Positions 2-64,000 of a stretch of DNA of 64,000 nt are shown here, piece by piece. Below the pieces are notes generated by a model that did not search any database, was not told the DNA's origin, and saw only the letters and a program-made list of their open reading frames with translations. The number at the start of each line of letters is the position of its first letter. Within the stretch, counting starts at the first letter, position 1. Source of the stretch: Nitrosopumilus sp. (GTDB lineage Archaea > Thermoproteota > Nitrososphaeria > Nitrososphaerales > Nitrosopumilaceae); assembly GCA_965218785.1 (NCBI GenBank), contig OZ244650.1, positions 928,001 through 992,000 on the forward strand. Direction: 5' to 3'. The position numbers and the translations under genes are program-made.

Positions 2-3000
2 ACTGCTGTAGACCCCGGCACATCCCCGCCAGTCATCGTGTCTGCCGTGGCCAATGATGCGACCATGATCGTACTTGCCGCATCCGAACCCCCTGAAGGA
101 ACCGCATCTGTTCAATACGCCGTTACGGCGGATACACCGCCCACTGTTGTCATATCCTCAACTACTGCCTTTGATGAGACCGCCACAAACACCGGCACCC
201 TATCCTACACTGCTGAATTTACAGAGCCCGTGACAGGCTTTGATGTGTCAGACATCCGCGTAACTGGAACGGCATCAGGCGGCTCTCCTATGGCATCAAA
301 CTTTGATGGGACCAGTGATAGATACACCTTTGAGGTGAAAACCACTTCTGATGGAACAGTCCTGCTATCAATTCCCGCAGGTGCGGCAGCAGATGCGGCA
401 AACAACGGCAACAGGGCATCCGGCATATACGTCATTACAGTCGATACTGCCATTCCCGAAATTAACTCAATAGTTCTCACCGATTCTAGTACGGTCGTAC
501 TTGTCGCATCAGAACCCCTCGTAGATGTTCCTGATACCGGCACCTTCCAAGTCTCCGACAACACAGTATTTGGCACCTCACTCTCTGATAGAATCATAAC
601 ACTCACAGTCAATATGCCCATCAAAGCAACCGGGGTCATTAAAGTCACCTACACCGGCTCGAATTTTGCCGATTCTGCGGGAAACCCGCTTGCCGACTTT
701 ACTGACATGTCCGTGATAAACAGCATATCTCAAGTACGGATTGTCCATGCCGCCCTGGATGAAAACAGCGGAATACTTGAGATACGGTTTAGCGGCACCA
801 TCCAGTCTGATGAAGTATCCCCTGAAAAAATCCACATCATAGATTCTGATTCTGCTGCAAACAGCGTAACGCTCTCTGATGGCGAACTTGTCGGAGTGGA
901 TGGGACCGTGGTAACATTCAGACTTGATGAACAGAACAGACAAAACGTAATTCTGTTTGATGTGCCGACCCTTAGTTTTGACTCTGTCGCAATGTCCTTT
1001 ACAGACGGAAAAGAATTCCCCCAGTCCACAGACACATTCAGGGCGGTTCCAGTCACGAGTCTTCCGCTTGAACCATTCCAGTCAGCAGATGACACCATAT
1101 ACAGCATTCCCGGAGTGGAGATAGGCAATAACGGCACAAAAATGTTTATTCTGGAATTAATAGGTTCCGTCTACTTTGTGGAATACGATCTTGCCACTCC
1201 GTTTGATATTTCAACTGCCAGCCGCGTACAATCCGTGTACCTGGGATCCGGTACGGATCTTCATATTTCTCCGAATGGTACAAAATTATTTTTCGCAAAG
1301 GCTACTGACCCAATAACGACATATACGCTTTCCACGCCCTTTAATATTTCCACTGCGACACTATCTGATTCCGCCCAATTTCTATCAGACAATAAATATG
1401 TGAGTGGAATTGACATGACACCAGACGGCACAATGTTGTTCATATATGACGATTTTGCTGATTTAGTATACCAGTACGATCTTGTCACCCCCTTTGATGT
1501 CAGCACGGCCGAAAGTAATGGCACGTTTCTGGTACCTGGAGATTTTACTACACCCATCACTGCCCTGTCAGTATCTGATGACGGCGGACACCTGTTCTTA
1601 CTAGATGTTACACAGGGCATGACCCGATATGCCCTTGCCACGCCATTTGATGTCACTACCGCCCACAGTCCTGAAACAATACTGCCCCCCGTCCGTTTCA
1701 ACTATGGAATTGCGTTATACGATGATGACACAAAGATGATCCTCACATCAGATACGGATCGCAGCATACACCAGTTTGCGCTGTCAGTATACGACCTTGA
1801 GACAACACATGCCGTCATGGACATACCTGTTATCACATCTGTCTTTGCAGCCCCCGGCATCTACGGCATTGGGGATACTGTTGATATTACGGTGCGATAC
1901 TCTGAGGATGTACGTGTAACTGGAATACCCAAGATGGGAATCAGCATCGGGGATCAAATCATACAGCTTGATTACAGCCCCGCCCCGCCCTCCTCTGATC
2001 TTCTCTTTCAGTATGTTGTACGGGAGGGAGATAATGTCAATCCGCTGGACCATGCCGGAACAGAGTTGATACTCCCGGATGATGGCGCATTCCTCGTCTC
2101 CTTTGAGCATGGCGTGGAAACCTTCAACGCGCTTCCAGAGCCCGGCTCTGCCGCATCCCTTGCAACCTCTAACGTGGTACTTGACGGCGTGAGACCCACA
2201 CCCCACCAGTATCCGGAGATATCAGTTGATACCATAACAGTACAACTGACTGAGCAGATCAGCCTCGCCGGTTCTCCTGCCTTTAACTTTGCCATACGCG
2301 GTCTTGAATCCAATCCAACTGTCAGATCAGTTAGCATGTCTGGTACGAATGCCACGCTGACCCTCTCCGGACCTATCATGTTACACCAGGCCCCTACCCT
2401 CTCATACGTGCCATCAAACGTGGGCTCCATATCTGACCCTGCCGGAAACACCTTACTTGGCTTTACCATGCCGTTGTCGCATCAAGGCTCAGTTGATCTT
2501 GTCTCGTTATTCATGGATGAGGATAACAAATGGATAGAGGCAAAATTTGACAGCATTATAGACGTATCCACCATAGCACCTGCAAACATGCGGATTATTC
2601 CATCAGGCTCGGCGGACATACTGCTTGCTGATGACGCTCTTTTAACCGTGTCTGATTCAGATACGATACGACTACAACTGACAGACGCGCAGATAAACAC
2701 GATAAGACTTGCAACGCGCACCACCCTCCATTTTGACTCTGTTGCGATGCATGATGTGGCAGGCGATCCCTTCCCCACGCCGTTCCACGTGGTATCGCCT
2801 GTGAATGCCGGCTCTGTCGAATTTCCAGCAGTTGGAAACCCGACCGGACTGGCATTCTCCAATGACGGGCGCAAGATATTCCTATCTGATGGCGGCTCAC
2901 ACATCATATCAGAGTATTCGCTGCCCGTCCCCTTTGTCCTGACACAGGCGACGTTTGTGAGCTCACTTGATGTGGACTCTTATGCCGGCGATAACTACCA

Positions 3001-6000: not shown

Positions 6001-9000
6001 GACTGCACCCTTTGACATATCCACACCGATGTTTGCAGGCAGTTCCGCTGCACCCTTTGATGGCGGTGTCGATATCACGGGCCTGGAATTCTCTGATGAT
6101 GGAAATACAGTGTTTGTAGCAGACTCTGATAATGACGAGATAGACCTGTATGCCCTGACTGCACCCTTTGACATATCCGCACCGGTGTACCTGCGTTCCC
6201 TGGGCATCTCAGAGGATGACACCCCGGCAGACGTTTATTTTTCCACGGATGCCAGCGCCCTGTTTGTAACAGGCTCCCAAACTGACAGGGTATACCGGTA
6301 TGATCTGAGTGTTTCATATGACGTGCCTGGCTGCGGAGAGGATAGTTCATGTACTGGTTCATCCCTTGATATCCTCTCTGCAGTATGGCGGGATCCCGAC
6401 GAGTCTGATACTGTCTTATCAGACGGCGATGAGCTGAGCATCACGTTTAACCAGGTTACTGACATGGCGGGATCTCAGGTGCTCTCAAAGTCAGTCCTTG
6501 ATGCAATCTTTGAGTTTGGGGGGACGCTTGGGGCAGATTACACCGGCGTGTGGTCTGATGCCAGAACGCTTGTAATTACCGTAATTGACTCGACTGGCGG
6601 TGATGCGGCGGTGGGTGATACCATCTCGCCGTTTAGGGGGACGGCATTCATATACAGCCTTGATACTGCGGGCGGAACCGCATTTTTCCGTCCTGCCGAA
6701 GTTGCAACAAACTCCACGGGGCACATCTTTGTTGCAGACTTGAACAACGTCCAGATATTTGATCCGGATGGAACGTATGCCGGAGCACTTGACACCGCGG
6801 GCGGAACCGCATTTTCACGTCTTGCCGGCATTGCAACAAACTCCACGGGGCACATCTTTGTAGCTGATGACGGACTCAACCTGGTCCGGATATTTGATCC
6901 CGATGGAACGTATGCGGGAGCCCTTGACACCGCGGGCGGTCAGACGTTCAGGGTGCCTGCAGCCGTTGCAGTGGGACCCGATGACAGGATCTACGTCAGC
7001 GATACTGACGCTAGCAACGTAGACAAGCGAGACCGGCGCAACGTCCAGATATTTGATCCGGACGGAACGTATGCCGGAAGACTTGCCACCACTGTCAGCA
7101 CAGAATTTGACACACCCCTGTCTGTTGCAACAAACTCCACGGGGTACGTCTTTGTGGCAGACAGTGGCAATGATGATATCCGCATATTCCATCCGGACGG
7201 GAGAAACATTGCCAATATAGACGCAACCGGCCAGAGCGGCTCCTCAAGTCCTATTGCAGTCGCCACAAACTCCACGGGGCACATCTTTGTATCATTTGCA
7301 AACGTTGGTGCTGCTGCTGACAGCATCGAGATATACACGGGCTCTGGCGTGTACATCGAGGATCTGCCCCTGAGAAACGTGGATTTTGGACGGGCGTCGG
7401 GGATTGCAGTGAACCCCGATGATCGGCTGATCATCGTTGATTCCCAAAACAACGAGGTGTATGTCTTTGGCCATCAGATAATATACTCTGATACGGGACT
7501 GCAGCAGTTCGCCTCTGACGCAGATACCTCCGGCAACTTTGGAATACTTCGCCCGACTGTATCTGTAACATCCGATGTACTCCCGGGTGCTACTACCGCA
7601 CTTGACACGGTAGGATTCACCGTGGTATTCAGCGAGGAGGTTACCGGATTTGATGCGTTAGATATAGCAGTAACTGGTATGGCGCAGGCCGCAGTCGTTC
7701 CATCAAGCTTTGATGGTGCTGCCAACCCGACATTCACCTTTGACGTGCTGGCAACTGCTGACGGGGAGATGACAGTCTCTGTTCTGCCGCTTGCTGCAAG
7801 TGCGACTAGCTCCGGCAATGCCAACCTTGCATCAAACGATTATACCATAACCGTAAACACGTCTGACCCAACTGTAACCATATCCTCCTCTACCCGGGAC
7901 GGCTCTGTTATACCATCAAACCTTGTCTCCTACAGGGTCACCTTCAGCGAGGAGGTCACCGGATTTGATGCCGAAAACGTTGCAATAACCGGAGGCGCGC
8001 AGGCAAAAGTTGTATTATCAAGCTTTGATGGTACTGCCAACCCGGTATTCACCTTTGATGTACTGGTGTCTGCTGATGGGGTGATGACTCTGTCAATACC
8101 TGCAAATGTTGCAACTGCCGCTGCCACAGGTCGCACCAATGTCGCATCAGCCGAGTACACCGTAACAATAATCACGTCAAACCCGACTGTGACGGTATCC
8201 TCAGTCGTTGACAGCGGGGCTAGTACCAACCTGCGCCAAATACTGTACACTGTGACATTCAGCGAGGAGGTCGCCGGATTTACAGCATCAGACGTTGTAG
8301 TAACCGGTTCGGCAGGAGCCACAGTTGACGGGTCAAGCTTTTTTGATGCGCTCAACCCCGTATTCACCTTTAACGTACTGGCAACTGCAAGCGGACAGGT
8401 AACAGTGTCGATTCCGTCTGGCGCTGTAAATGCAGCAGTCTCCGGCAATGCCAACACCGCGTCAGCTGAGCATTCCATAACAGTCGACCTGACAAACCCG
8501 ACTGTGACGGTATCCTCAGTCGTTGATAACGGGGCAAGTACCAACCTGCGCCAAATACCGTACACCGTGAGATTCAACGAGGCAGTTACCGGATTTGCAG
8601 CATCAGATGTGGCAATAACTGGCACGGCGCAGGCAGTCGTTAACGAGTCAAGCTTTGATGGTACTGCCAACCCGTCATTCACCTTTGATGTGACGGTATC
8701 TTCAGACGGGCAACTAACAGTATCCATACCTGAAGGCGCTGCAAACGAATCCGACTCTGGCAATCCCAACATTGCGTCAGCCGAGCATACGATAACTGTG
8801 GATACGTCCGGCCCGACTGCAACGGTATCCTCAGTCGTTGACAGCGGGGCAAGTACCAACCTGCGCCAAATACCCTATACTGTGATCTTTGGCGAGGCAG
8901 TTACCGGATTTGAAGCATCTGATGTCACGGTAACTGGAACTGCAACTGAAACCGGCGGCTTCATTGTGTCGCACTTTACATCTGTTGGCGGCTCCGTGTA

Positions 9001-18187: not shown

Positions 18188-18538
18188 ACCTCGAACCAAA
18201 ACTCATGATGGCATATTTGAACAGATCATCAGATGATTCCCATAATCATTTGGATAAACACGTGTATCTTTTGCAGGAAGATGACGACTATATGATGCAG
18301 GACAATCTTATTTTGACGGATCATTGGGAACCCGCTATGTTTATCCTTTTGTTTTTTATTTTTAGGAATAATTTCAGTGTCTTGTCTGCAATTTACGGTA
18401 ATGTCTGCAACAAAACCTTGATCTTTCTTAACTAGTGTTGAACTGTTACCTTGATGTTTGTTTTGATTTGATTTATGGGCTTCTGGAAATCACCACATAT
18501 CATCATATCATATCTTGTTCTACTGACTTTGTCATCTG

Positions 18539-19825: not shown

Positions 19826-20450
19826 AAGATGGAGATAACCATCTTGGATTCTGCAACACTGCCACAACAGTATACCTTGGCTGTTTTGTAAGAATATGGT
19901 GAGATGATCTAATAATTCTTCTTCAAAAAGCATCACTATACTATCAAAACGCTTTGTGTTTTGATCACCGGATTCAATGTGGGATAACCGTGTCTCAGAT
20001 ATGATAAAGGAAGCATCACAGACATAAAGACGGTCTGACGCATATTCATTGCCGATCCATTCGTCATGTGTGAGAATGTTTAAAATTAACATGTATTGTA
20101 TTGAGGAATATCCCTCTCTTCATACAGTGATAAGACATGATACTGTTGTAACATCATGAGATGACAAATCCAAGTCTGTAGAAGATATGACTCCTGAACC
20201 ATTCCAATCGATCCTGAACCGGTTCCAATGAATCCTGAACTAACTACGATAAATATTGGACTAACTACGATAAATATTGGACTATCTACGATGAATGTTG
20301 GACTAACTACGATAAATATTGGACTAACTACGATAAATATTGGACTAACTACGATAAATATTGAACCGGTTCTAATGAATCCTGAATACACAGGTGATTA
20401 TAATACCTTTGAGAAGATCATGACTGGCTCCAGTCATTGTTTGGAATCCC
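19826..20450 (+). pseudogene. Decayed copy of the giant-protein C-terminal cassette, with an internal inversion at 19880..20101
   Basis: 19826-19879 matches 17537-17590 forward, 19880-20101 matches 17591-17812 in reverse complement, and 20102 onward matches 17813 onward forward, with stops and indels downstream. Confidence 0.85.
20239..20364 (+). repeat. Six tandem 21-bp repeats (ACTAACTACGATAAATATTGG)
   Basis: Four exact and two variant copies, at the position of the 21-bp Pro/Glu linker repeats of the relic. Confidence 0.9.
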
Positions 20451-21058: not shown

Positions 21059-21154
21059 CATCCACAACATCATCCACAACATCATCCACAACATCATCCA
21101 CAACATCATCCACAACATCATCCACAACATCATCCACAACATCATCCACAACAT
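21059..21154. repeat. Eight perfect tandem 12-bp repeats (CATCCACAACAT), intergenic VNTR
   Basis: Counted directly; one degenerate copy near 21383-21400. Confidence 0.95.
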
Positions 21155-45200: not shown

Positions 45201-45637
45201 GTGTTCCTATACAAACTACTTTTTTTTAAATTAATATTATAAAATCACACTTTTGATGCCAGTTTCTGCGCGTTTTATTCGGTCTTTTGTGTTGTCAGGA
45301 TCAGGAGGAGACCTCCTGGTAATTGAATCGATTTTATCAAACCACGCACGTTTCTTTACAACGAGATCCGAGAGTAGGAATAACAGTACAATTCATGCCA
45401 ACATGCAAAAAATTATCAAAAAAACCAAAATCTTTTTTCTCCTTTACCGGAGTTACGGCGTAATAATTTGATGTCATTTTACGATCTCAAAAAACAGTAT
45501 CCCCGGACTGAGAATGCAGACTGGCAAAAAAAGGCTCAGAAATACCGGTGCGGGTAGGTGGTATTATTTGTAATTACACACGAGTCTCTAATACTCATTA
45601 TACCATCTTGGAATGAGAGTCTAGAATGAAAACCCTG

Positions 45638-49389: not shown

Positions 49390-49411
49390 GCGTCTGCTGT
49401 GATATCGTACT

Positions 49412-54200: not shown

Positions 54201-56114
54201 GCATCAGTTCGACTCTCCGTCGCATTATCTGACTCCCCCGTCCTATCTGATACAGTAACTGGCATGGGCGCCGTCGCAGAATCCGACTCTCCTGTAATCG
54301 CAGATTCCACATCCGTTAAACTCTCCGTCGCATTATCTGACTCCCCCGCCCTATCTGATACAGTAACTGGCATGGGCGCCGTCGCAGAATCCGACTCTCC
54401 TGCAATCACTGACTCTGCATCCTTGAAATTCTTCATTGCATCTTTTGATACACCTGCCGTATCTGATCAACACGACATTCAAATCATGAATAACATCACA
54501 CAGGAAGACTCTCCCGTACTAGCTGACTCTTTCCTCCTTAAACGATCCCTTAACCCCACTGACTCCCCAGTCCTATCTGATGCGGTAGCTGGTATGGGTA
54601 CACTAAATGAATCCGACTCTCCCGTAATCGTCAATTCTGTATCATCTCAACTCTCCATTGCCCTCTCCGACTCACCCGTCATATCTGATACAGTAACTGG
54701 CATGGGCGCCGTCGCAGAATCCGACTCTCCCGTACTAGATGACTCTGCATCCCTGAAATTCTCAGTTGCCCTCTCCGACTCCCCTGTTCTATCGGATACC
54801 GTAACTGGCATGGGCGCCGTCGCAGAATCCGACTCTCCGACAGTCACTGACTCTGCCCTCCTTGAACTCTCCATTGCCCTCTCCGACTCTCCTGCAATGT
54901 CTGATACCGTAACTGGCATGGGCGCCGTCGCAGAATCCGACTCTCCTGCAATCACCGACTCTGCATCCGTTGAACTCTCCCTCAATCCCACAGACTCCCC
55001 CGTACTATCTGATGCTGTAACTGGCATGGGCACCCTTGCAGAATCCGACTTTCCGGTTCTATCTGATTCTGCAATAGTTCAAAAGACCCTCAATCCCACT
55101 GACTCCCCCGTCCTATCTGATACGGTAACTGGCATGGGCACCATCAGCGTATCGGACTCTCCGGTTCTATCTGATTCCGCATCATTAGTCTTGCCAGTAC
55201 CTCCAGATACCACTCCCCCAGAACCTCCATCTACACCGAGAACCACTGATCCGTCAGAGCGCAGATCCGGTGGCGGCGGTGGCGGCGGTGGCGGTGGTGG
55301 CAGCGGCAGCGGCAGCGGCAGCAGAGGAGGCGGTGGTCTAAACTATGACGTATCCTTTAACTTTACATCAAACAATGTAGACGTACTGACAGACCTCTCA
55401 CAGGTAAGAATAGAACCAGACACGCTCCTTACAATAACGCCGCATGTACTGCCAGTTAATGCACGCCAGAACATCCTAAAGATGGAGGTAATCCTCACAG
55501 ATAATGCAACACCGCAACATCAGGACGCCTTGATACAATATGAATTATTTTCAAACACTCTTACACGTGATGACTGCAGTGGCAATGAATATGAATCAGA
55601 CCGTCTTTACATCTGTAATGCATCCTCGCTCATATCTGAGAGGCAGACATCGTACTCTGAATCCCGCGTACAAATCTCAAAGCATTTTGAGAGTCTGATG
55701 ATATTCTTTGAAGAAGAGTTCTCAGGCAGCCTTAGCATATTATTACATGACACCCGTGGAACACTGCTCTCTTCACACAATTACACTTCATATGACATTA
55801 TCGTAGAACCAGTAGGCGGCAAACCAGAGCCTGCATCCGAGGTGGATCCCGAACCACAGCCCATACCCGTGGATCCCGAACCGGAACCCAAAGTCATACC
55901 AATGAATCCCGAACCAGAACCCAAAGTCATACCAATGAATCCCGAACCGGAACCAGAACCAGAAGTCATACTCATGAATCCAGAACCCAAACCCGTCCCA
56001 ACAGATCCGGAACCAGCAGATGACCGCAACATCTTTGAGATGTTTGCAGACTGGTTCCAGTCACTGTTTGGACTCTTGGAATCCCAGTACAAACTGATTC
56101 AAAACATACTGTGA
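51255..56114 (+). CDS. Large modular cell-surface protein 3 (1619 aa): signal peptide, SwmB-like domain, 12 NHL repeats, Ig-like domain, SDSP stalk, shared C-terminal cassette
   Basis: Hydrophobic N-terminal segment ending SSYS/Q; 12 counted NHL blades at ~138-bp period; C-terminus homologous to proteins 1 and 2. Confidence 0.9.
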   Translation: MILTDKKQFSEMCSAYYDTSKIIIIMGVFSAVLLGLGGIESSYSQTAEEDVTAPVLLHVRTTSDTTILLTFSLHHSQIHNTMPDAGFQVSGVTAGNTISNVRVLGPWITVTLENPIIPGDIVRISYLGNSIVNGRDDKLEHFEDVLVINRVHVSFGGLSHLEGHLNRPAGIAVTSTNIFVADFGNNRIQIFDLDGGFVKAFGESGSGDGSFDSPSGIAVTSTHIYVTDTGNDRIQIFDLDGGFVKAFGESGPEDGSFDSPSGIAVTSTHIFVTDTKNDRIQIFDLEGGFVKAFGESDSGDGGFSFPQGIAVTPTNIYVADTKNDRIQVHDLNGNVVNKFGRSSDLSNFVAPHGIAVTSTNIFVTVISDLIYKFDLDGNFINTFSNSGLSVGRLIDPQGIAVTPTNIYVSDTGNDRIQIFDLEGNFVSKFGDSNFKEGAFFGARGIAVTPTNIYVADGGNDRIQIFDLEGNFVKAFGESGSEDGNFDSPHGIAVTSTNIYVADADNGRLQIFDLNNNFVNKLSEFSFDDEFFHIIYDVAVTSTNIYVAVGVNDRIQIFDLEGNLVSKFGRFGFDDGDFFDPFGVAVTSTNIYVVDIGNHRIQIFDLDGSFVKAFGESGSGDGSFNSPQGIAVTPTNIFVIDTGNDRIQIFDLEGNFVSKFGEFVTPPFRYPVGITVNYDNVFVTAGRYNPIRMFDMSAILPIPVVFSVSAPDGEYGWGDTIPITVTFSRPVTVTGMPELALNAGNTAIFEQVLPEGKMVFRYTLARTDFAENLNYVDEGSLTLKGGTILSSYDDTPADTTLPDLTAFNSLGRTSSVLVDGDALFPRDILDVSDSASSASTFGISDAPIISDSASSASTFGISDAPIIPEITDSATLAVRFAISDSVDFTDTVTGMGAVAESDSPVIADSTSVRLSVALSDSPVLSDTVTGMGAVAESDSPVLTDSASLKFYIISFDTPAVSDQHGIQIMNKNTEEDSPAITDSASVRLSVALSDSPVLSDTVTGMGAVAESDSPVIADSTSVKLSVALSDSPALSDTVTGMGAVAESDSPAITDSASLKFFIASFDTPAVSDQHDIQIMNNITQEDSPVLADSFLLKRSLNPTDSPVLSDAVAGMGTLNESDSPVIVNSVSSQLSIALSDSPVISDTVTGMGAVAESDSPVLDDSASLKFSVALSDSPVLSDTVTGMGAVAESDSPTVTDSALLELSIALSDSPAMSDTVTGMGAVAESDSPAITDSASVELSLNPTDSPVLSDAVTGMGTLAESDFPVLSDSAIVQKTLNPTDSPVLSDTVTGMGTISVSDSPVLSDSASLVLPVPPDTTPPEPPSTPRTTDPSERRSGGGGGGGGGGGSGSGSGSRGGGGLNYDVSFNFTSNNVDVLTDLSQVRIEPDTLLTITPHVLPVNARQNILKMEVILTDNATPQHQDALIQYELFSNTLTRDDCSGNEYESDRLYICNASSLISERQTSYSESRVQISKHFESLMIFFEEEFSGSLSILLHDTRGTLLSSHNYTSYDIIVEPVGGKPEPASEVDPEPQPIPVDPEPEPKVIPMNPEPEPKVIPMNPEPEPEPEVILMNPEPKPVPTDPEPADDRNIFEMFADWFQSLFGLLESQYKLIQNIL
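51750..53340 (+). repeat. Twelve NHL repeats (two 6-bladed propellers)
   Basis: GGCATAGCAGTCACC..CACAAACATC..ATACAGATATTTGATTTGGA framework repeated. Confidence 0.9.
53725..55190 (+). repeat. 18-aa SDSP stalk repeats of protein 3
   Basis: VALSDSPVLSDTVTGMGA / VAESDSPVIADSTSVRLS alternation. Confidence 0.88.
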
Positions 56115-56940: not shown

Positions 56941-57003
56941 ACTGCCTGAGGTGTATTAGTGTATGTAATATATTCAACATATTAAATAATAAACTGAGCA
57001 AGT
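56941..57003 (+). promoter_or_regulatory. Upstream region of giant protein 4 (paralogous to 51196..51254)
   Basis: Direct alignment by eye with the region before 51255. Confidence 0.6.
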
Positions 57004-60000
57004 ATGATCCTGACGTATAAAAGACAATTCTCAGAGATATACAACACCAATTCTGGCACATCAAGGCTAATCATAATTATGGGGATTCTCTCTACTGTAC
57101 TGTTTGGGCTGGGAGGCATCGAATCATCCTATTCTCAGACTGTGGGGGATAACACCGCACCTGGCATACTGCATGCAGAGACAACATCTGCCAGTACCAT
57201 CCTGCTTACCTTCTCTGAAGAAATTACTGATGTATCTGATGCGGATTTTGAGGTCTCAGGTGTTACTGCCGGAAACGACATATCTGGTGTGACGCTGTCT
57301 GGTGATAGTATTCAAGTGACACTTGTGAACTCGATAGCATTGGAGGATATCATCAGCATATCCTATCTTGGCAACTCTGTTGTGGATCTTGCAGGTAACA
57401 GTCTTGGATCCTTTGAGGGGATTAGGGTTGTAAACGGCATCCACGTTGTTTTTGGAAATCCGGCTCACACTGGAAACAGTTTAAACGAACCATCCAGCAT
57501 AGCTGTCACCTCCACAAACATTATTGTAGTAGATTCTAGAAATGACAGAGTACATGTGTTTGAACTGAATCCAGATCCGAATTTGAAACCTACTTTTCGC
57601 AAAACATTCGGTGGATCCGGTTCCGGGGACGGCGCCTTCTTAGCTCCACGGGACATAGCAGCCACTGCCGCAAACATCTATGTTGCAGATACCGGAAATG
57701 ACAGAGTACAGGTATTTAATCTGGAAGGTACTCTTCTCAACAAGTTCGGTCAATCCGGTTTCGCAAACGGCAATTTCAATTCCCCATCCAGTATAGCTGT
57801 CACCTCCACAAACATCTTTGTAGTAGATTCTGGAAATGACAGAGTACAGGTATTTGATCTGCAGGGTAATTTTGCCCGCACATTCGGCGAATCAGGTATC
57901 GGGGATGGCCATTTCAATTCCCCATCCGGCATAACAATTGACTCTACACGCATACTTGTAGCAGATTCTGGAAATGACAGAGTACAGATATTTGATCTGG
58001 ACGGTACTTTTCTCAGCAAGTTCGGCGGATTTGGTTCCGGGATGGGAGTTTACTCATATCCACAAAGCATAGCTGTCACCTCCACACAGATCCTTGTAAC
58101 TGATATTGAAAATCACAGAATAAACACATTTAATCTGGATGGGAGTGATTCCAACGCATTTGGTGGATTAGGTTCTGAGGGCGGCGCCTTCTCATCTCCA
58201 CGAGACATTGTAGCCACCTCCACAAACTTCTATGTAGCAGATACCGGAAATGACAGAATACAGATATTTAATTTGTCAAGAAATTTTGTCAATGAGTTTG
58301 GTGAATCAAGTTCTGCAGACGGCACTCTCTCATTTCCATATGGCATAACAGTCAATTCTACACGCATCCTTGTAGCAGATGCCGGAAATGACAGAATACA
58401 GACATTTGATTTGAACGGTACTTTTCTCAGCAAGTTCGGTGGATCAGGTGATGAGGAGGGCACTTTCTCAGATCCACAAGGCATAACAGTCAATTCTACA
58501 AACATCATTGTAGTAGATAGCAGGAATCACAGAGTACAGATATTTGATCTAGACGGTACTTTTCTAGATGAGTTTGGTGAATTTGGTACCGGGGAAGATG
58601 ATATCGAGGAAGATGATTTATTCTTCCCACTAGGCATAGCAGTCAACTCCACAAACATCATTGTAGCCGATCTTGGAAATCGCAGAATAAAGGTACATGA
58701 TCTGGACGGTACTTTTGTCAGTGAGTTTGGTAGCAAGGGTTCTGGAAACGGTCAATTCTTATCTCCGCGAGACATAGCAGTCAACTCTACACACATCCTT
58801 GTAGCAGATTCCCGTAATAGCAGAATACAGGTATTTGATCTGGACGGTACTTTTGTCAGCACATTCTCTGGATTAAACGATGAAGGCAACTCTCTCTTAA
58901 TTCCATCCGGTATCGCAGTCACCTCCACACACATCCTTGTAGTAGATTCTGTAAATGGCAATATACAGATATTTGATTTGAATGGAAATCTTCTCAACGA
59001 GTTTGGTGAATTTATTACTCCGCCATTTGAATCCCCGGTTGGAATAACTGTAAACAGTGATAACGTCTTTGTTACAGATGGCATTGATAACACGGTGCGC
59101 ATATTTGATTTATCCACAATACTGCCAGCCCCTGCAGTGCTTTCTGTCTCTGCACCCGTCGGGGAGTATGGTTGGGGGGATACTGTTCCAATCACCATGG
59201 TCTTTAACCTGCCTGTTGTGGTAACAGGAGTGCCGGAACTCGAATTGAATAACAGTAAGGTTGCCGTCTTTGACCAGGTATTGCCTGGAGGCAAGATGAT
59301 ATTCAAATATACCGTGGCTCGTGCAGATTTTACCGAGAATCTCAACTATGTTGATAAAGACTCACTCATACTACAAGGCGGTACAATAGTTTCATCTTAT
59401 GATGAGACTCCTGCTAACAAAGCACTTCCGGCGCTTAGTACACTAGACACGGATGTACTGACCAACGGCAGTACTTTTTTTCTACGTGATATTCTGACTG
59501 TCTCTGACTCTGCATTATCTGCCAGCACATTTGACATAGCTGATGCGCCGGTTCTCTCTGATTCTGCATCATCTATCCGTATCCTTGACATATCTGATGC
59601 TCCGGTTCTCTCTGATTCTGCATCATCTGCCAATATCTTTGACATAGCTGATGCGCCGGTCCTCTCTGATTCTGCATCATCTGCCAATATCCTTGACATA
59701 TCTGATGCGCCGATCCTCTCTGATTCTGCATCATCTGCCAATATCCTTGACATATCTGATGCTCCGGTCCTCTCGGAGATGACAAAAATTGACGCGCGGC
59801 CAGAATTCGTATCTGCCATCGTTTCGGATCCTGAAACCATTAGAATTACAATATCCGAACCAGTTCGGGGGAATCCATTACCGGAAGAATTTACCGTATT
59901 TGATAATATAGTCTCTAATACAGTCATTAGTACAGTCACTAAGGTTGTTTTATCTGGGAATATCATAACACTTACGGTGGATACTCCAATTGCCTCAGGC

Positions 60001-63000
60001 GACCCCGTCACCGTCTCATATCCCGTCAATTCGATCACCGATTCGATCACCGATGTGACAGGTAACGTACTTCGGTTTACCAACGCCGTAGCAAACGACG
60101 CCGTGACAATAACGGCTGTATGGAATGATCCGGACAATGCAGATGAAGTGCTCTCCGTAGGCGATACGCTTACCATAACGGTTTCAGAAGATACGGACAG
60201 GCCCGGCGGAACAGGAATTCAGGACAAACTCCTGATTGATGCAGTCTTTACCTTTGAGAATCCGATCGGTGCAGACTATACTGGAATATGGGTTGATGTC
60301 CGGACATTTGTAATTACCATAACTAATGCCACAGATGCTACGGCTATAGTCGGCGAAGACGTCTCACCGTTTACTGGAATAAGGTTTCTTAGAGATCTAG
60401 GTACTACGGATGATGTATCGTTTCTGAGGCCGCAGGGAGTGGCTGCAAACTCTACAGGCTTTATCTATGTTGCAGATACAGGGAACGACATCGTCCGGAT
60501 ATTTGATCCTTCAGGTCAGTATGTCGGCAATCTGGCTCCAGGTCCAGATGGGTTTGATAATCCACGGGGATTGGCGACAAACTCTACTGATTTTATCTTT
60601 GTTATAGATGGCTCTCCTGGCAGTAACGTCCAGATATTTGACCCTTCAGGCCAGCATGTTGGAAACTTGGAAAACCCAAACGCTCAAGACGGCGGCAGGC
60701 CATTTAGTAATCCTGGGGATGTAGAAGTCAGTCCTGATGGTTTTATCTTTGTTACGGATTCTAGTAGTGGTTCAGTACAAAAGTTTGATCCGTCTGGCAA
60801 CTTTATTAAAGCATTGAGTCTGCCGAGTGACCCTGGTTTTAATTTTCCACGAGGCATTGCAGTCAACTCTACGGGGGCAATCTATGTCTCCGGAATTGAA
60901 ATTAATGGACCAACTCGTAATAATGTAGTTCGGATATTTGACTCTGATGGGATACATCATGGGGATCTTGTTTTTAGGGGTAGTGAACGATTTGGAGCGC
61001 TGAATGGAATAGCAGTAAACTCTACTGATTCTATTTTTGTTTCAGATAGAGAAGTCATCAGGGTATTTGGTCCAGATGGGGTATATTCCGAACTATTTAG
61101 TCCTCTGGGAGGCGTCCTGCTTCAACGTCCTGCACACCTTTCAATATTTGGCGATGATCAATTTGTAATTGCAGATACAGATGAGCACCTGGTGCAGATA
61201 TACGGACGCACCATTATACGGGATGATGAAAGAACTCGAGTACTATTTAGCGTATCCGTTAAAACCAGCGGAGACTTTGGCATAGAACCGCCAAAGTTTA
61301 ACGAAATAAACTCCCCTGAAATAACAGACAGTGCAACACTGGCAGTAAGATTTGCGGTATCTGACTCTGTAGATTTTACTGATACTGTAACTGGTATGGG
61401 CAGCGTTGCAGATTCTGATTCTCCTGTAATCGCAGATTCCGTATCCGTTCGACTCTCAGTTGCCATCTCTGACTCTCCAGTCCTAACTGATGCTGTAACT
61501 GGCATGGGCGCCGTCGCAGAATCCGACACTCTGACAATCACTGATTCCGCATCAGTTAAACTCTCAGTTGCCATCTCTGACTCTCCAGTCCTAACTGATA
61601 CCGTAACTGGCATGGGCACCGTCGCAGAATCCGACTCTCCGGTAATCACTGATTCCGCATCCCTGAAATTCTCCCTCAATCCATCTGACTCCCCCGTCCT
61701 GATTGATACCGTAACTGGCATGGGCACCGTCGCAGAATCCGACTCTCCGGCAATCGCTGATTCCGTATCCATGAAATTCTATATTACATCTTTTGATACA
61801 CCTGCCGTATCTGATCAACACGACATTCAAATCATGAATAACAACGCACAAGAAGACTCTCCGGCAATCGCAGATTCCGCATCAGTTAAACTCTCCATTG
61901 GCCTCTCTGACTCTCCCGTCCTGGCCGATACCGTAACTGGCATGGGCACCGTCGCAGAATCCGACTCTCCTGTAATGGCCGATTCCGTATCAGTTCAGAT
62001 CTCAGTTGCCATCTCTGACTCCCCCGTCCTGGCCGATACCGTAACTGGCATGGGCACCGTCGCAGAATCCGACTCTCCTGTAATCACTGATTCCGCATCC
62101 CTGAAATTCTTCCTCAATCCATCTGACTCCCCCGCCCTGGCCGATACCGTAACTGGCATGGGCACCGTCGGAGAATCCGATTCTCCAGTAATCACTGATT
62201 CCGCACTCTTTGAATTCTCACTTGTGTTATCTGACTCCCCCACCCTGGCAGATACCGTAACTGGCATGGGCACCGTCGCAGAATCCGACTCTCCAGTAAT
62301 CACTGATTCCGCATCAGTCAAACTCTCCATTGGTGTCTCTGACTCCCCCGTCCTGGCTGATACCGTAACTGGCATGGGCACCGTCGCAGAATCCGACTCT
62401 CCTGTAATCACTGATTCCGCATCCCTGAAATTCTTTATTACATCTTTTGATGCACCTGCCGTATCTGATCAACACGACATTCATATCACTAATGTCGTCA
62501 CACACGAAGACTCTCCGGCACTATCTGACTTTGTCTTCCTTAAGCGATCCCTTAATCCTACCGACTCCCCCGTCCTATCTGATGGGGTATCTGGCATGGG
62601 CACACTCAGTGAATCCGACACTCCTGCAATCACCGATTCTGTATCTGCTCAACTCTCCATTGGTGTTTCTGACTCTCCAGTCCTGACTGATACCGTAACT
62701 GGCATGGGCACCGTCGCAGAATCTGACTCTCCGGCACTATCTGACTCTGCCGTTCTTCAACACTCCATTGGTCTCTCTGACTCCCCCGTCCTATCTGATA
62801 CCGTAACTGGCATGGGCGCCGTCGGCGAATCCGACTCGCCGGCAATCACCGATTCCGCACTCTTTGAACTCTCCATTGCCTTCTCTGACTCTCCAGCATT
62901 ATCTGATACCGTATCTGGCATGGGAGTCGTCGGCGAATCCGACTCGCCGGCAATCACCGATTCTGTATCCGCTCAACTCTCCATTGCCCTCTCCGACTCC

Positions 63001-64000
63001 CCCGTCCTGACTGATACCGTATCTGGCATGGGCGCCGTCGGCGAATCCGACTCGCCGGCAATCACCGATTCTGTATCCGCTCAACTCTCCATTGGTGTTT
63101 CTGACTCCCCCGTCCTGACTGATACCGTATCTGGCATGGGCGCCGTCGGCGAATCCGACACTCTGGCAATCACCGATTCCGCACTCTTTGAACTCTCCAT
63201 TGCCCTCTCCGACTCCCCAGTCCTATCTGATACCGTATCTGGCATGGGCGCCGTCGCAGAATCCGACACTCCTGCAATCACCGATTCTGTATCCGCTCAA
63301 CTCTCCATTGCCCTCTCCGACTCTCCGGTCCTATCTGATGCGGTGTCTGGCGTGGGCACTCTAGGCGAATCTGATTCCCCAATAATCACCGATTCTGTAT
63401 CCGCTCAACTCTCCATTGCCCTCTCCGACTCCCCAGTCCTATCTGATACCGTATCTGGCATGGGCGCCGTCGCAGAATCCGACTCGCCGGCAATCACCGA
63501 TTCCGCACTCCTTGAATTCTCCCTCAACCCCACTGACTCCCCCACACTATCTGATACCGTAACTGGCATGGGCGCCGTCGCAGAATCCGACTCGCCGGCA
63601 ATCACCGATTCCGCATCCGTTCAACTCTCCCTCAACCCCACTGACTCCCCAGTCCTATCTGATTCAGTAACTGGCGTGGGCACTCTTGGCGAATCCGACA
63701 CTCCAACAATCGCCGATTCCGCATTCCTGAAATTCTCACTTACCCTCTCTGACTCCCCAGTCCTGACTGATACCGTAACTGGCATGGGCGCCGTCGCAGA
63801 ATCCGACTCTCCTGCAATCGCCGATTCCGCATCCGTTCAACTCTTCCTTGCCACATCTGACTCCCCCGTCCTGGCTGATACCGTAACTGGCATGGGCACC
63901 ATTGCAGGATCCGACACTCCTGCAATCACAGATTCCGCACTCCTTGAATTCTCCCTCGACCACACTGACTCTCCCGTCCTATCTGATACGGTAACTGGCA
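57004..64000 (+). CDS. Giant modular cell-surface protein 4 (3'-truncated by window edge, >2330 aa), paralog of protein 3; absent from the ORF track
   Basis: ATG 57004 gives MILTYKRQFSEIYNTNSGTSRLIIIMGILSTVLFGLGGIESSYSQ, homologous to protein 3. The frame was open wherever I translated it, up to the edge. Contains 12 NHL blades, an Ig-like domain, an extra SwmB-like + DPD/NHL module and SDSP repeats. Confidence 0.9.
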   Translation, partial: MILTYKRQFSEIYNTNSGTSRLIIIMGILSTVLFGLGGIESSYSQTVGDNTAPGILHAETTSASTILLTFSEEITDVSDADFEVSGVTAGNDISGVTLSGDSIQVTLVNSIALEDIISISYLGNSVVDLAGNSLGSFEGIRVVNGIHVVFGNPAHTGNSLNEPSSIAVTSTNIIVVDSRNDRVHVFELNPDPNLKPTFRKTFGGSGSGDGAFLAPRDIAATAANIYVADTGNDRVQVFNLEGTLLNKFGQSGFANGNFNSPSSIAVTSTNIFVVDSGNDRVQVFDLQGNFARTFGESGIGDGHFNSPSGITIDSTRILVADSGNDRVQIFDLDGTFLSKFGGFGSGMGVYSYPQSIAVTSTQILVTDIENHRINTFNLDGSDSNAFGGLGSEGGAFSSPRDIVATSTNFYVADTGNDRIQIFNLSRNFVNEFGESSSADGTLSFPYGITVNSTRILVADAGNDRIQTFDLNGTFLSKFGGSGDEEGTFSDPQGITVNSTNIIVVDSRNHRVQIFDLDGTFLDEFGEFGTGEDDIEEDDLFFPLGIAVNSTNIIVADLGNRRIKVHDLDGTFVSEFGSKGSGNGQFLSPRDIAVNSTHILVADSRNSRIQVFDLDGTFVSTFSGLNDEGNSLLIPSGIAVTSTHILVVDSVNGNIQIFDLNGNLLNEFGEFITPPFESPVGITVNSDNVFVTDGIDNTVRIFDLSTILPAPAVLSVSAPVGEYGWGDTVPITMVFNLPVVVTGVPELELNNSKVAVFDQVLPGGKMIFKYTVARADFTENLNYVDKDSLILQGGTIVSSYDETPANKALPALSTLDTDVLTNGSTFFLRDILTVSDSALSASTFDIADAPVLSDSASSIRILDISDAPVLSDSASSANIFDIADAPVLSDSASSANILDISDAPILSDSASSANILDISDAPVLSEMTKIDARPEFVSAIVSDPETIRITISEPVRGNPLPEEFTVFDNIVSNTVISTVTKVVLSGNIITLTVDTPIASGDPVTVSYPVNSITDSITDVTGNVLRFTNAVANDAVTITAVWNDPDNADEVLSVGDTLTITVSEDTDRPGGTGIQDKLLIDAVFTFENPIGADYTGIWVDVRTFVITITNATDATAIVGEDVSPFTGIRFLRDLGTTDDVSFLRPQGVAANSTGFIYVADTGNDIVRIFDPSGQYVGNLAPGPDGFDNPRGLATNSTDFIFVIDGSPGSNVQIFDPSGQHVGNLENPNAQDGGRPFSNPGDVEVSPDGFIFVTDSSSGSVQKFDPSGNFIKALSLPSDPGFNFPRGIAVNSTGAIYVSGIEINGPTRNNVVRIFDSDGIHHGDLVFRGSERFGALNGIAVNSTDSIFVSDREVIRVFGPDGVYSELFSPLGGVLLQRPAHLSIFGDDQFVIADTDEHLVQIYGRTIIRDDERTRVLFSVSVKTSGDFGIEPPKFNEINSPEITDSATLAVRFAVSDSVDFTDTVTGMGSVADSDSPVIADSVSVRLSVAISDSPVLTDAVTGMGAVAESDTLTITDSASVKLSVAISDSPVLTDTVTGMGTVAESDSPVITDSASLKFSLNPSDSPVLIDTVTGMGTVAESDSPAIADSVSMKFYITSFDTPAVSDQHDIQIMNNNAQEDSPAIADSASVKLSIGLSDSPVLADTVTGMGTVAESDSPVMADSVSVQISVAISDSPVLADTVTGMGTVAESDSPVITDSASLKFFLNPSDSPALADTVTGMGTVGESDSPVITDSALFEFSLVLSDSPTLADTVTGMGTVAESDSPVITDSASVKLSIGVSDSPVLADTVTGMGTVAESDSPVITDSASLKFFITSFDAPAVSDQHDIHITNVVTHEDSPALSDFVFLKRSLNPTDSPVLSDGVSGMGTLSESDTPAITDSVSAQLSIGVSDSPVLTDTVTGMGTVAESDSPALSDSAVLQHSIGLSDSPVLSDTVTGMGAVGESDSPAITDSALFELSIAFSDSPALSDTVSGMGVVGESDSPAITDSVSAQLSIALSDSPVLTDTVSGMGAVGESDSPAITDSVSAQLSIGVSDSPVLTDTVSGMGAVGESDTLAITDSALFELSIALSDSPVLSDTVSGMGAVAESDTPAITDSVSAQLSIALSDSPVLSDAVSGVGTLGESDSPIITDSVSAQLSIALSDSPVLSDTVSGMGAVAESDSPAITDSALLEFSLNPTDSPTLSDTVTGMGAVAESDSPAITDSASVQLSLNPTDSPVLSDSVTGVGTLGESDTPTIADSAFLKFSLTLSDSPVLTDTVTGMGAVAESDSPAIADSASVQLFLATSDSPVLADTVTGMGTIAGSDTPAITDSALLEFSLDHTDSPVLSDTVTG
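61315..64000 (+). repeat. At least ~49 18-aa SDSP stalk repeats of protein 4, running off the window
   Basis: GATACCGTAACTGGCATGGGC.CCGTCGCAGAATCCGACTC recurring every ~108 bp. Confidence 0.9.

What the first reader, a model, noticed from the sequence alone, without database searches (positions are those of the whole stretch)
2..64000. Family of four giant mix-and-match surface proteins: a candidate recombination-diversified adhesin system in a thaumarchaeon
Seen: four same-strand genes (2-18187, 22077-36818, 51255-56114, 57004->64000) built from one module kit in different numbers and orders, with long near-identical DNA shared within and between genes. Examples: 6360-7540 ~ 9130-10330 ~ 24390-25630; 10700-12200 ~ 12240-13740; 13930-14550 ~ 16330-16980; 23760-24400 ~ 27670-28280. 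The common layout is variable propeller/Ig array, SDSP stalk, then a constant C-terminal cassette. Known: giant beta-propeller/Ig proteins occur in Cenarchaeum symbiosum and related thaumarchaea, with unresolved function. Inference: a variable-head, constant-base surface display repertoire remodelled by ectopic recombination, plausibly for host or phage interaction.
Basis: partly seen in the sequence, partly recalled or inferred. Interest (0 to 1): 0.8.

Follow-up and report, generated by a model that had tools for sequence, protein, structure and literature searches.

The report
Mosaic giant surface proteins, marine archaeon
An ammonia-oxidising archaeon carries a family of enormous, acidic, modular cell-surface proteins whose building blocks have been duplicated, swapped and overwritten by recombination; this is a familiar way for surface proteins to evolve, seen here with an undescribed tail-end module.

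Summary
The four same-strand giant genes exist at the stated coordinates. They are built from about a dozen shared module types. "Near-identical DNA" is overstated. The named repeat pairs are 73-84% identical. Only short tracts reach 91-98%: the Ig2 copies in A and the stalk of B.

The recombination idea holds on an evolutionary timescale:
- Adjacent Ig2 and Ig1 modules give conflicting trees (AU p=3.5e-35 and 0.023).
- PHI tests are significant in 3 of 6 module sets.
- A closely related Nitrosopumilaceae genome holds orthologues whose synonymous divergence jumps from about 0.01-0.03 to 0.37 within one gene.
- 2 of 3 orthologue pairs differ in module content.

The "constant" C-terminal cassette is conserved but is itself exchanged between genes. 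It has no Pfam, NCBIfam or PDB sequence relative. It occurs in only 17 cluster representatives out of 1.84 billion proteins.

Surface display and adhesion are inferred, not shown. I found no evidence for a programmed variation system. Verdict: a real new variant of a known kind, namely recombining giant surface proteins. Moderate interest.

The parts
2..18187 (+). Gene A (5'-truncated by the window edge; >=6061 aa, pI 4.05). Module order: Ig1-SWM-[X1-PropA(-Cys)]x4-X2-PropB-Ig1x5-X2-PropB-Ig2-SWM-PropC-SWM-PropC-stalk x4-Ig2-Ig1-NHL-Ig1-stalk x5-Ig2-Ig1-cassette.
22077..36818 (+). Gene B (4913 aa, TTG start, hydrophobic signal-like N-terminus). Module order: PropC-Ig1-Ig2-Ig1-X2-PropB-Ig1-Ig2-Ig1-Ig1-Ig2-Ig1-Ig2-Ig1-NHL-Ig1-NHL-Ig1-Ig1-NHL-Ig1-SWM-PropC-stalk x22-cassette.
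51255..56114 (+). Gene C (1619 aa). Module order: signal-like N-terminus-SWM-about 12 NHL blades-Ig2-stalk x15-cassette.
57004..64000 (+). Gene D (3'-truncated by the window edge; 2332 aa seen). Module order: signal-like N-terminus-SWM-NHL x2-Ig2-54-nt repeats-SWM-X2-PropB-stalk x25+. Its orthologue L001 is 2674 aa and ends in the cassette.
33492..35816 (+). Stalk of B. 36-aa (108-nt) Ser/Asp/Thr/Pro-rich repeats arranged as a 216-nt super-repeat, 9.2 copies, 89% matches. 300-nt tracts are 96-98% identical to each other.
13769..14152 (+). First short stalk array of A (114-nt period, 3.4 copies, 88% matches).
16040..16576 (+). Second short stalk array of A (114-nt period, 4.8 copies, 91% matches). 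The orthologue L003 has an extra PropC-SWM block inserted at this place.
53742..55205 (+). Stalk of C (108-nt period, 11.4 copies, 69% matches).
61312..63990 (+). Stalk of D (108-nt period, 24.2+ copies, 77% matches; it runs off the window).
17320..18187 (+). C-terminal cassette of A: Gly run, about 157-aa all-beta domain (17396-17866), acidic Pro/Glu repeat linker, and a terminal amphipathic motif.
35892..36818 (+). C-terminal cassette of B (domain at 36000-36470). The tail runs on for about 35 aa past the conserved end motif.
55260..56114 (+). C-terminal cassette of C (domain at 55338-55808).
19865..20101 (-). Decayed cassette fragment: 79 aa matching residues 5864-5942 of A's C-terminal domain at 75% identity, in inverted orientation.
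   Evidence: (P0010)
20105..20386 (+). Degenerate Pro/Glu-linker-like repeat (21-nt period) that abuts the inverted fragment. Together they imply an inversion junction near 20103.
6368..7552 (+). X2-PropB block, copy 1 in A. The other copies are at 9134-10330 (A), 24414-25630 (B) and 60103-61310 (D).
10709..13744 (+). Tandem SWM-PropC x2 in A (74.7% identical). PropC also occurs at 22173-23402 and 32301-33461 in B. PropC models as a beta-propeller (pLDDT 87, pTM 0.89).
14177..14854 (+). Ig2-Ig1 dimer u1 of A. The other dimers are A 16601-17275 and B 23736-24401, 25947-26630, 26958-27623 and 27633-28298. The Ig2 halves group by gene; the Ig1 halves group across genes.
740..6175 (+). Four X1-PropA units of A. 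Two are followed by Cys-rich 16-aa repeats (3572-3778 and 4919-5260). The copies are only 26-36% identical in protein and have no relative in B, C or D.

Best explanation
The window holds four paralogues of a family of giant (172 to >634 kDa), very acidic (pI about 4.05), Sec-exported, modular envelope proteins. The host is a Nitrosopumilaceae archaeon.

Each protein has four regions:
- A distal array of beta-propellers (TRIM-like NHL, the NHL-like PropB, and the family-less PropC and PropA) and Ig-like modules.
- A stalk of 36-aa Ser/Asp/Thr/Pro repeats.
- A Gly-run hinge.
- A conserved C-terminal cassette: a 157-aa beta-sandwich with two invariant Cys, an acidic Pro/Glu linker, and a terminal amphipathic '..WF.SLFG' motif.

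I infer that the cassette holds the protein at the cell envelope and that the heads bind ligands.

Shown: the family evolves by duplication of multi-module blocks, by insertion and deletion with breakpoints in the repeat arrays, by repeat-array homogenisation, and by gene conversion or replacement between paralogues. This happens both within a gene and between distant loci. The result is mosaic genes that differ even between very close relatives.

Inferred: surface location, anchoring by the cassette, a ligand-binding or adhesive role, and selection by host, phage or grazer for variability. The process looks like ordinary homologous recombination acting on repeats, not a dedicated switching machine.
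For: Family and modules:
- Module map of all four genes.
- NHL scores: E=2.9e-107, 7.1e-47 and 2.7e-75 for B, C and D. Big_12 scores 77 bits in B. NHL versus TRIM71 in the PDB gives E=3e-70.
- PropC models as a beta-propeller (pLDDT 87).
- The cassette domain models as an all-beta sandwich (pLDDT 80.5).
- Hydrophobic N-termini in B, C and D. pI is 4.05-4.09.

Cassette:
- 17 of 1.84e9 cluster representatives match. In the full-length matches the domain always lies about 90-250 aa from the C-terminus, in proteins of up to 5278 aa. The end motif is conserved in most of them.

Recombination inside the window:
- PHI gives p=0.001 (Ig2+Ig1 dimers) and p=0.01 (NHL).
- The Ig2 tree groups copies by gene (100/100 support), whereas the adjacent Ig1 tree groups them across genes (96/96 support). 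Each half rejects the other half's clade (AU 3.5e-35 and 0.023).
- Tracts of 93-95% identity sit inside blocks of 75-85% identity.
- An inverted cassette relic lies at 19865-20386.

Comparison with the related genome (6 loci):
- A versus L003: 96.5% over 5178 nt. D versus L001: 91.7% over 7149 nt. B versus L002: 78.2% over 9848 nt.
- A versus L003: pS=0.030 over 8.9-13.8 kb, but 0.369 over 16.9-18.2 kb.
- 2 of 3 orthologue pairs differ in modules. L003 has an extra PropC-SWM inside the stalk, and the B orthologue has a different head.
- Within that genome, a 300-nt tract is 100% identical within L003 and 98% identical to L004, which lies about 600 kb away.
- In the cassette tree, L003 pairs with L004 and L005 with L006, rather than A with L003.
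- PHI on the 9 cassettes gives p=0.002.
Against: - No expression, localisation or binding data exist. 'Adhesin' rests on domain types alone.
- No housekeeping gene is shared between the window and the six loci. The genome-wide divergence baseline is therefore only inferred from the lowest-pS stretches.
- 3 of 6 PHI sets are not significant at 0.05 (p=0.052, 0.069, 0.27).
- X2 and PropB trees are not incongruent (AU p=0.48 and 0.32). Two of the Ig2 clade tests did not reject (p=0.24).
- The PHI signal in the dimers could come from duplications with different boundaries rather than from conversion.
- pN/pS never significantly exceeds 1. The highest values are 1.58 (Fisher p=0.36) and 1.12 (p=0.66).
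- pS inside stalks may be inflated by repeat mis-register.
- The cassette fold search gave only weak, generic beta-sandwich matches (TM<=0.44), so the anchoring role is unsupported by homology.
- Only one related genome could be compared.
Confidence: 0.65

Rival explanations
1. This is a programmed, high-frequency variation system, like antigenic variation. Expressed genes would be continually rewritten from donor cassettes, so that single populations display many head combinations.
For: - Conversion tracts of 98-100% identity link genes about 600 kb apart in the related genome.
- A promoterless, decayed cassette fragment lies between A and B.
- The genes sit at different chromosomal places in two close relatives.
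Against: - Within the window the best paralogous tracts are 91-98% identical, and module-level dS is 0.05-0.6. That indicates old events, not continual rewriting.
- There is no array of silent cassettes, only one relic.
- None of the 15 non-giant ORFs scanned encodes a recombinase, reverse transcriptase or invertase. No transposase appears among the 16 flanking ORFs of the related loci.
- D and its orthologue have the same architecture.
Confidence: 0.12
2. These are static old paralogues. The modules duplicated long ago and have diverged independently since. Patchy identity would reflect uneven purifying selection rather than recombination.
For: - Most module pairs are only 42-84% identical.
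- The Ig1x5 array shows no PHI signal (p=0.27).
- X2 and PropB trees are compatible.
Against: - Synonymous divergence itself jumps 12-fold within one orthologous gene (0.030 to 0.369).
- Adjacent halves of the same dimers have strongly conflicting trees.
- A's two Ig2 copies are closer to each other (91-95%) than either is to its orthologue (82-88%).
- Orthologues differ by whole modules.
Confidence: 0.08
3. This is an assembly artefact. Repeats caused chimeric joins, so the mosaics and the clustering of four giant genes within 64 kb are not real.
For: - The A-, B- and D-like genes lie at about 313 kb, 228 kb and 1209 kb in the related chromosome, not together.
- The 14-kb housekeeping block of the window is next to none of them.
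- B's stalk holds 96-98% identical repeats that could collapse in assembly.
Against: - Module order within A (8.9-16.2 kb), B (25.8-36.8 kb) and D (all 7.1 kb) is collinear with an independent assembly.
- All four ORFs are uninterrupted over up to 18 kb.
- The inter-gene repeats are only 67-85% identical, which is too diverged to confuse modern assemblers.
- No reads were available to test the joins.
Confidence: 0.06
4. The proteins are real and on the surface, but they are not adhesins. They would be a structural or physiological coat, for example an acidic cation-concentrating or protective layer like thaumarchaeal S-layer proteins, or carriers of enzymatic propellers.
For: - pI of about 4.05 lies within the 3.4-4.9 range reported for thaumarchaeal S-layer proteins, which are proposed to concentrate ammonium (PMC6790972, passages read).
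- PropC's best fold matches include a polysaccharide lyase and sialidases (TM 0.47-0.62).
Against: - Protein C has no sequence match to any S-layer entry in the PDB copy (27 matches listed, none an S-layer protein; most are NHL propellers).
- Rapid turnover of heads and pN/pS of 0.35-1.6 fit interaction surfaces better than a lattice.
- No catalytic family was detected.
Confidence: 0.15

Closest known systems
Giant1-5 extracellular proteins of Apilactobacillus kunkeei (PMC12863079; abstract and outline read)
   Same: Both are clusters of consecutive genes for 3,000-8,000-aa surface proteins in a host-associated microbe. Both have elongated modular structures with a binding head. Both diversify among close strains mostly by short intragenic recombination and by exchange between paralogues.
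   Different: That system is bacterial, with beta-solenoid heads at the N-terminus and Gram-positive surface attachment. This one is archaeal, with propeller and Ig heads, a 36-aa-repeat stalk and an unrelated C-terminal cassette. Its genes are scattered in the relative's chromosome.
[quoted passage not shown]
   Same: An archaeal precedent: cell-surface glycoprotein genes vary between co-existing lineages through homologous recombination, interpreted there as reducing virus infection.
   Different: There, whole genes and gene sets differ within one island, and mobile elements take part. Here, modules within giant genes are reshuffled, and no mobile-element genes were seen.
Expanded 'S-layer-like' and eukaryotic-like surface proteins of sponge-associated Thaumarchaeota (PMC6790972, passages; PMC7848895, passages)
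   Same: Same phylum. Those papers report acidic putative surface proteins suggested to act in adhesion or recognition, and NHL and Ig domains in both sponge-associated and free-living members. Serpins are typical of sponge symbionts, and a serpin fragment lies in this window.
   Different: In the passages read, those papers count domains. They do not describe this architecture, the C-terminal cassette or recombination among the genes. Supplementary Table S11 of PMC7848895 was not seen.
Serine-rich-repeat and Ser-Asp-repeat stalk adhesins of Gram-positive bacteria (PMC6973325, search listing and abstract start only; Sdr proteins recalled)
   Same: A low-complexity Ser-rich repeat stalk projects a binding region away from the anchored end, and the repeat number is variable.
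   Different: The unit here is a 36-aa complex repeat, not a dipeptide or short SRR. There is no LPXTG or aSec context. Glycosylation was not tested.
SwmB-type giant proteins of marine Synechococcus (SWM_repeat PF13753 and TIGR02059; their role in swimming motility is recalled, not checked)
   Same: The SWM module matches these models: 31.5 bits in D, above the 27-bit cut-off.
   Different: C scores below the cut-off (24.3 bits; TIGR02059 gives 22.8 bits against a 40.1-bit cut-off). The rest of the architecture is unrelated.
TRIM-NHL beta-propellers (TRIM71, TRIM2/3, Brat)
   Same: The 6-bladed NHL propellers of C match TRIM71 at E=3.1e-70.
   Different: Those are intracellular RNA-binding eukaryotic domains. 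Here the propellers are extracellular modules arranged in tandem arrays.

Membership tests
NHL-repeat beta-propeller (Pfam PF01436) | Repeated about 28-aa NHL motif scoring above the Pfam gathering cut-off (20 bits) | tested here: met
   B scores 346 bits, C 156 bits and D 245 bits. A's PropB segment scores 81 bits. PDB TRIM71 NHL matches at E=3e-70.
Big_12 bacterial Ig-like domain (PF19078) | Score above the 27-bit gathering cut-off | tested here: met
   B as a whole scores 77.3 bits over 5 stretches. A single Ig1 copy from A scores only 21.8 bits, below the cut-off.
SWM_repeat (PF13753) / swm_rep_I (TIGR02059) | Score above the curated cut-off (27 bits / 40.1 bits) | tested here: inconclusive
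   D scores 31.5 bits (met) and C 24.3 bits (not met). TIGR02059 gives 22.8 bits against a 40.1-bit cut-off. One copy matches Big_5 at 25.9 bits against a 23.6-bit cut-off.
Archaeosortase/exosortase-type C-terminal sorting signals (PGF-CTERM, PEF-CTERM and similar; that NCBIfam holds these models is recalled) | Short signature motif, then a transmembrane helix and a basic cluster at the extreme C-terminus, recognised by NCBIfam models | tested here: not met
   NCBIfam scans of the last 265-279 aa of A, B and C gave no sorting-signal family. The only hit was a below-cut-off TonB-like match to the Pro/Glu linker. The tails end in an amphipathic motif with no long hydrophobic helix (read by eye).
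Thaumarchaeal S-layer protein | Sequence homology to the lattice-forming S-layer protein | tested here: inconclusive
   Protein C gave 27 PDB matches and none is an S-layer protein. Only protein C was searched, and I did not verify that the PDB copy holds a thaumarchaeal S-layer entry.
Silent-cassette antigenic variation systems (pilE/pilS, vlsE and similar; features recalled) | One expression site plus an array of promoterless donor cassettes | tested here: not met
   tblastn of all four proteins against the four intergenic regions next to the giant genes found only one decayed cassette fragment.
Silent-cassette antigenic variation systems (pilE/pilS, vlsE and similar; features recalled) | Structural variants within one clonal population | not testable with these tools
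Diversity-generating retroelement targets | A nearby reverse transcriptase and a template/variable repeat pair | tested here: not met
   None of the 15 non-giant ORFs scanned has a reverse-transcriptase domain. A TR/VR pair with adenine-specific differences was not specifically looked for.
RTX / type-1-secreted giant adhesins (LapA, SiiE, MpIBP type; features recalled) | RTX nonapeptide repeats and a C-terminal T1SS signal | tested here: not met
   No RTX (HemolysinCabind) family appears among the Pfam matches of B, C and D at E<=0.01, nor in the 13 segments tested from A and B. A was not scanned in full. The proteins instead have N-terminal signal-like peptides.

The most novel reading that the evidence does not exclude
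The C-terminal cassette (Gly hinge, Cys-pair beta-sandwich, acidic Pro/Glu linker, terminal '..WF.SLFG' amphipathic helix) would be an undescribed envelope-anchoring device, specific to Nitrosopumilaceae. It would double as a portable homology block. Because every family member ends in it and is preceded by the same stalk repeats, recombination can move whole heads between loci and between strains. That would give animal-associated ammonia-oxidising archaea a surface-variation repertoire analogous to antigenic variation, the first in this phylum.
Probability: 0.2. Interest if true: 0.75.

Novelty: new variant of a known kind. Interest (0 to 1): 0.55.

Why it matters
Ammonia-oxidising archaea are key nitrifiers and long-standing partners of sponges and other animals. 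How they attach to or are recognised by hosts, phages and grazers is essentially unknown.

This locus gives concrete candidates: a small, lineage-restricted family with several family-less domains (PropC, PropA, X1, X2, Ig2 and the cassette). It also gives direct sequence evidence that the exposed parts turn over by recombination between very close relatives.

The conserved cassette and its end motif are a testable handle on how thaumarchaea tether large proteins to an envelope that lacks known sortase-type signals.

The general principle, giant surface proteins evolving by intragenic recombination, is already well known in bacteria and haloarchaea. That limits the surprise.

Tried and rejected
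I defined seeds by coordinates instead.
- The iterated HMMs cross-contaminated: PropB, NHL and PropA models also hit each other and the stalk. I resolved this by taking the best-scoring non-overlapping hit with at least 60% model coverage. As a result some NHL blade arrays in C and D are only partly tiled, and D's PropB was first labelled NHL.
- The search for homologous proteins with the cassette found nothing (proteins of 465-2000 aa, 2702-8598 aa). With PropC it found 10 unnamed fragments.
- The first locus search failed because the alignment was too diverse. It was repeated with four closer sequences.
- Protein Atlas gave only unnamed clusters for the cassette (best 0.92, recognition 1894) and for PropC (0.96, recognition 1450, Lactonase on 11% of members). 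I treat these as uninformative.
- The PDB fold search of the cassette domain gave only generic beta-sandwich matches (pilin BcpA, cohesins, Ig V domains; TM 0.25-0.44).
- No tRNA and no Rfam family were found in the window.
- Positive selection: pN/pS>1 in D's SWM+X2 and PropB is not significant.
- Tracing a donor for A's 3' end failed. The best matches anywhere are 73-85% identical, so the direction of replacement is unresolved.
- PMC1643844 (recalled as the C. symbiosum genome paper) is not held.
Full report
**1. What is in the window**

One search lists four very long ORFs on the + strand:
- A: 2..18187, open at the 5' edge, 6061 aa.
- B: 22077..36818, 4913 aa.
- C: 51255..56114, 1619 aa.
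- D: 57004..>63999, open at the 3' edge, 2332 aa.

Between B and C lies an ordinary housekeeping block. It holds dihydroxy-acid dehydratase, a HIT protein, aRF1, a DsbA-like thioredoxin, CbtB/CbtA, two small wHTH proteins, a phosphonate-type ABC transporter, a PurP-type protein (DUF1246/DUF1297) and AspRS.

G+C is 0.47-0.53 in A and B. It drops to 0.33-0.40 in the 3.9-kb spacer between them.

The organism is a thaumarchaeon. Stretches of A and D are 95-100% identical to a chromosome titled 'MAG: Nitrosopumilus sp.' (Nitrosopumilaceae).

**2. The repeats**

Self-blastn gives 326 off-diagonal HSPs at E<=1e-20. A shuffled window gives none.

In 300-nt windows, the highest within-window identities are:
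- 96-98% inside B's stalk.
- 91-95% between the two Ig2 copies of A.
- 95% for one tract of the two PropB copies of A.
- 93% for one Ig tract in B.

**3. Modules**

I seeded HMMs by coordinates from A and iterated them on the four proteins. This tiles all four with one kit. The architectures are given under 'parts'.

Recognised families:
- NHL propellers, which match TRIM71 at E=3e-70.
- Big_12-like Ig1.
- SWM/Big_5-like Ig.

Six modules had no Pfam or NCBIfam match above a curated cut-off: X1, PropA, Ig2, X2, PropC and the C-terminal domain. Sub-threshold exceptions: Ig2 gave a weak DUF11-repeat match (16 bits, cut-off 24). PropC scored 25.2 bits against the 25-bit cut-off of Lipoprotein_21, with no stretch passing on its own.

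PropC models confidently as a beta-propeller (pLDDT 87, pTM 0.89). Its structural neighbours are only generic propellers; the best is a 7-bladed lyase at TM 0.62.

The proteins are very acidic (pI 4.05-4.09) and 20-24% Ser+Thr. B, C and D begin with hydrophobic signal-like segments (read by eye).

**4. Stalk and cassette**

The stalk has a 108-nt (36-aa) period:
- B: 216-nt super-repeat, 9.2 copies, 89% matches.
- C: 11.4 copies.
- D: 24.2+ copies.
- A: 114-nt period, in two short arrays.

A, B and C end in the same cassette: a Gly run, a 157-aa domain, Pro/Glu repeats and a short tail. Protein identity of the domain is 57-76% among the three.

The domain models as an all-beta sandwich (pLDDT 80.5) with two invariant Cys. 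Its PDB neighbours are only weak and generic, and a sequence profile finds nothing in the PDB.

An exhaustive HMMER search of 1.84 billion cluster representatives found 17 matches at E<=1e-3. One is the window's own relic ORF. In the full-length matches (711-5278 aa) the domain lies about 90-250 aa from the C-terminus. Most of them end in the same amphipathic '..WF.SLFG'-like motif after an acidic Pro-rich linker. In several related loci the linker+motif unit is itself tandemly repeated.

**5. Tests for recombination inside the window**

- Module-pair dS ranges from 0.05 (A's two Ig2) to above 1, with dN/dS of 0.22-1.3.
- PHI permutation tests: Ig2+Ig1 dimers p=0.001, NHL p=0.01, X2+PropB p=0.052, PropC p=0.069, Ig1x5 p=0.27. 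On the 9 cassettes of both genomes, p=0.002. That makes 3 of 6 sets significant at 0.01.
- Trees of the six Ig2-Ig1 dimers conflict. The Ig2 halves group by gene (100/100 support). The Ig1 halves form two cross-gene types (96/96 support).
- The Ig2 data reject the Ig1 clade (AU p=3.5e-35), and the Ig1 data reject the Ig2 clade (p=0.023).
- Two further tests on the Ig2 data did not reject (p=0.24).
- X2 versus PropB shows no conflict (p=0.48 and 0.32).
- Between A and B lies a relic. An inverted 79-aa piece of the cassette domain, 75% identical to A's, abuts a forward linker-like repeat. This implies an inversion junction near 20103.

**6. Comparison with a related genome**

The cassette alignment retrieved six loci, all from one 2.36-Mb chromosome.

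| Window gene | Locus | Identity | Length |
|---|---|---|---|
| D | L001 | 91.7% | 7149 nt |
| A | L003 | 96.5% | 5178 nt |
| A (next part) | L003 | 92.0% | 2349 nt |
| B | L002 (+L005) | 78.2% | 9848 nt |

C has no orthologue among the six loci (best 68-86% in 300-nt windows).

Module maps:
- D and L001 are identical in order.
- L003 carries an extra PropC-SWM block inside the second stalk array.
- The B orthologue shares the C-terminal two-thirds but has a different head: PropC-SWM-Ig1-PropC-SWM-SWM instead of PropC-Ig1-Ig2-Ig1-X2-PropB.
- So 2 of 3 pairs differ.

Sliding synonymous divergence:
- A versus L003: pS is 0.00-0.03 in most windows over 8.9-13 kb, and 0.030 overall for 8.9-13.8 kb.
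- It shows bumps of 0.11-0.23.
- It then runs at 0.33-0.40 over the last Ig1, the cassette and the tail (0.369 overall), with few alignment gaps.
- B versus L002 averages pS 0.267 and pN 0.177.
- D's head has pS 0.055. Its SWM-X2-PropB insert has pN/pS of 1.1-1.6, which is not significant.

In A, each Ig2 is closer to A's other Ig2 (91-95%) than to the orthologue (82-88%). In the other genome, a 300-nt tract is 100% identical within L003 and 98% identical to L004, about 600 kb away.

The cassette tree pairs L003 with L004 and L005 with L006. A stands alone within that clade.

The genes sit at about 210, 228, 313, 467, 910 and 1209 kb in that chromosome, among housekeeping genes. No transposase appears in the 16 flanking ORFs scanned. 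The window's housekeeping block adjoins none of them.

**7. Interpretation**

The data fit a paralogous family of envelope proteins. It evolves by block duplication, repeat-array expansion and homogenisation, indels with breakpoints in the stalk repeats, and gene conversion or replacement among paralogues, the 'constant' cassette included.

Four points remain inferred: surface location, anchoring by the cassette, adhesion, and the selective agent.

The main caveat is that no housekeeping gene is shared with the fetched loci. The genome-wide divergence baseline therefore rests on the lowest-pS stretches. Only one relative was available. The closed collections and the switched-off cluster look-up left wider sampling unchecked.

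**8. Literature**

- Passages of PMC7848895 list NHL, Ig and other eukaryotic-like domains, and serpins, in sponge-associated Thaumarchaeota.
- Passages of PMC6790972 describe expanded acidic S-layer-like proteins that may act in adhesion.
- Abstracts of PMC12863079 and PMC4535781 document recombination-driven diversification of giant or cell-wall surface proteins, in a bee symbiont and in a haloarchaeon.
- Searches turned up no paper describing this cassette or recombination among thaumarchaeal giant genes. That is not proof of absence. The C. symbiosum genome paper was not held, and supplements were not read.

**9. Verdict**

The recombination reading is supported as an evolutionary process but not as a programmed system. 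It is a new variant of a known kind. Interest 0.55.

Noticed in passing
window 18539-19285 (+): A 248-aa ORF whose first 97 residues match only the C-terminal end of the serpin family (profile positions 283-370 of 370, E=2.9e-20). An acidic, cadherin-like-looking part follows. It is probably a truncated or fused serpin remnant. Serpins are reported as typical of sponge-associated thaumarchaea (PMC7848895, passages).
   Followed up: partly
window 45320-45557; L005 13514-13759 (opposite strand): A noncoding stretch of about 240 nt is 84-86% identical between the two genomes but sits in different contexts. In the window it lies upstream of the phosphonate-binding protein gene. In the relative it lies just upstream of the B orthologue. 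It has no Rfam match, even at E<=1.
   Followed up: partly
window 18069-18252 and ORF 18133-18435: The last roughly 100 nt of gene A (linker end plus tail motif) are repeated once, 82% identical, running across and past the stop codon. Several related loci (L002, L003, L004, L006) carry two or three in-frame linker+tail units. The tail may therefore expand and contract by tandem duplication.
   Followed up: partly
window 20969-21256: A short tandem repeat in the low-G+C spacer reads as (WMML)n or (HNII)n in opposite-strand ORFs. It has no Pfam family and is probably non-coding simple sequence.
   Followed up: no
window 36600-36818 (end of gene B): B's reading frame continues for about 35 aa past the conserved end motif at which the other family members stop. 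This suggests a lost stop codon or a variant tail.
   Followed up: no
L002 12280-20490 (+): In the related genome a third giant gene (>2737 aa, PropC-SWM-rich) directly follows the B orthologue. In the window, B is followed by ilvD. The gene content at this locus therefore differs between close relatives.
   Followed up: partly
window 3572-3778 and 4919-5260: Cys-rich 16-aa repeats (26 Cys in A against 0-3 in B, C and D) give weak matches to the teneurin EGF model (21 bits, far below the 65-bit cut-off) and to a zinc-finger model. They occur only between the PropA units of A.
   Followed up: no
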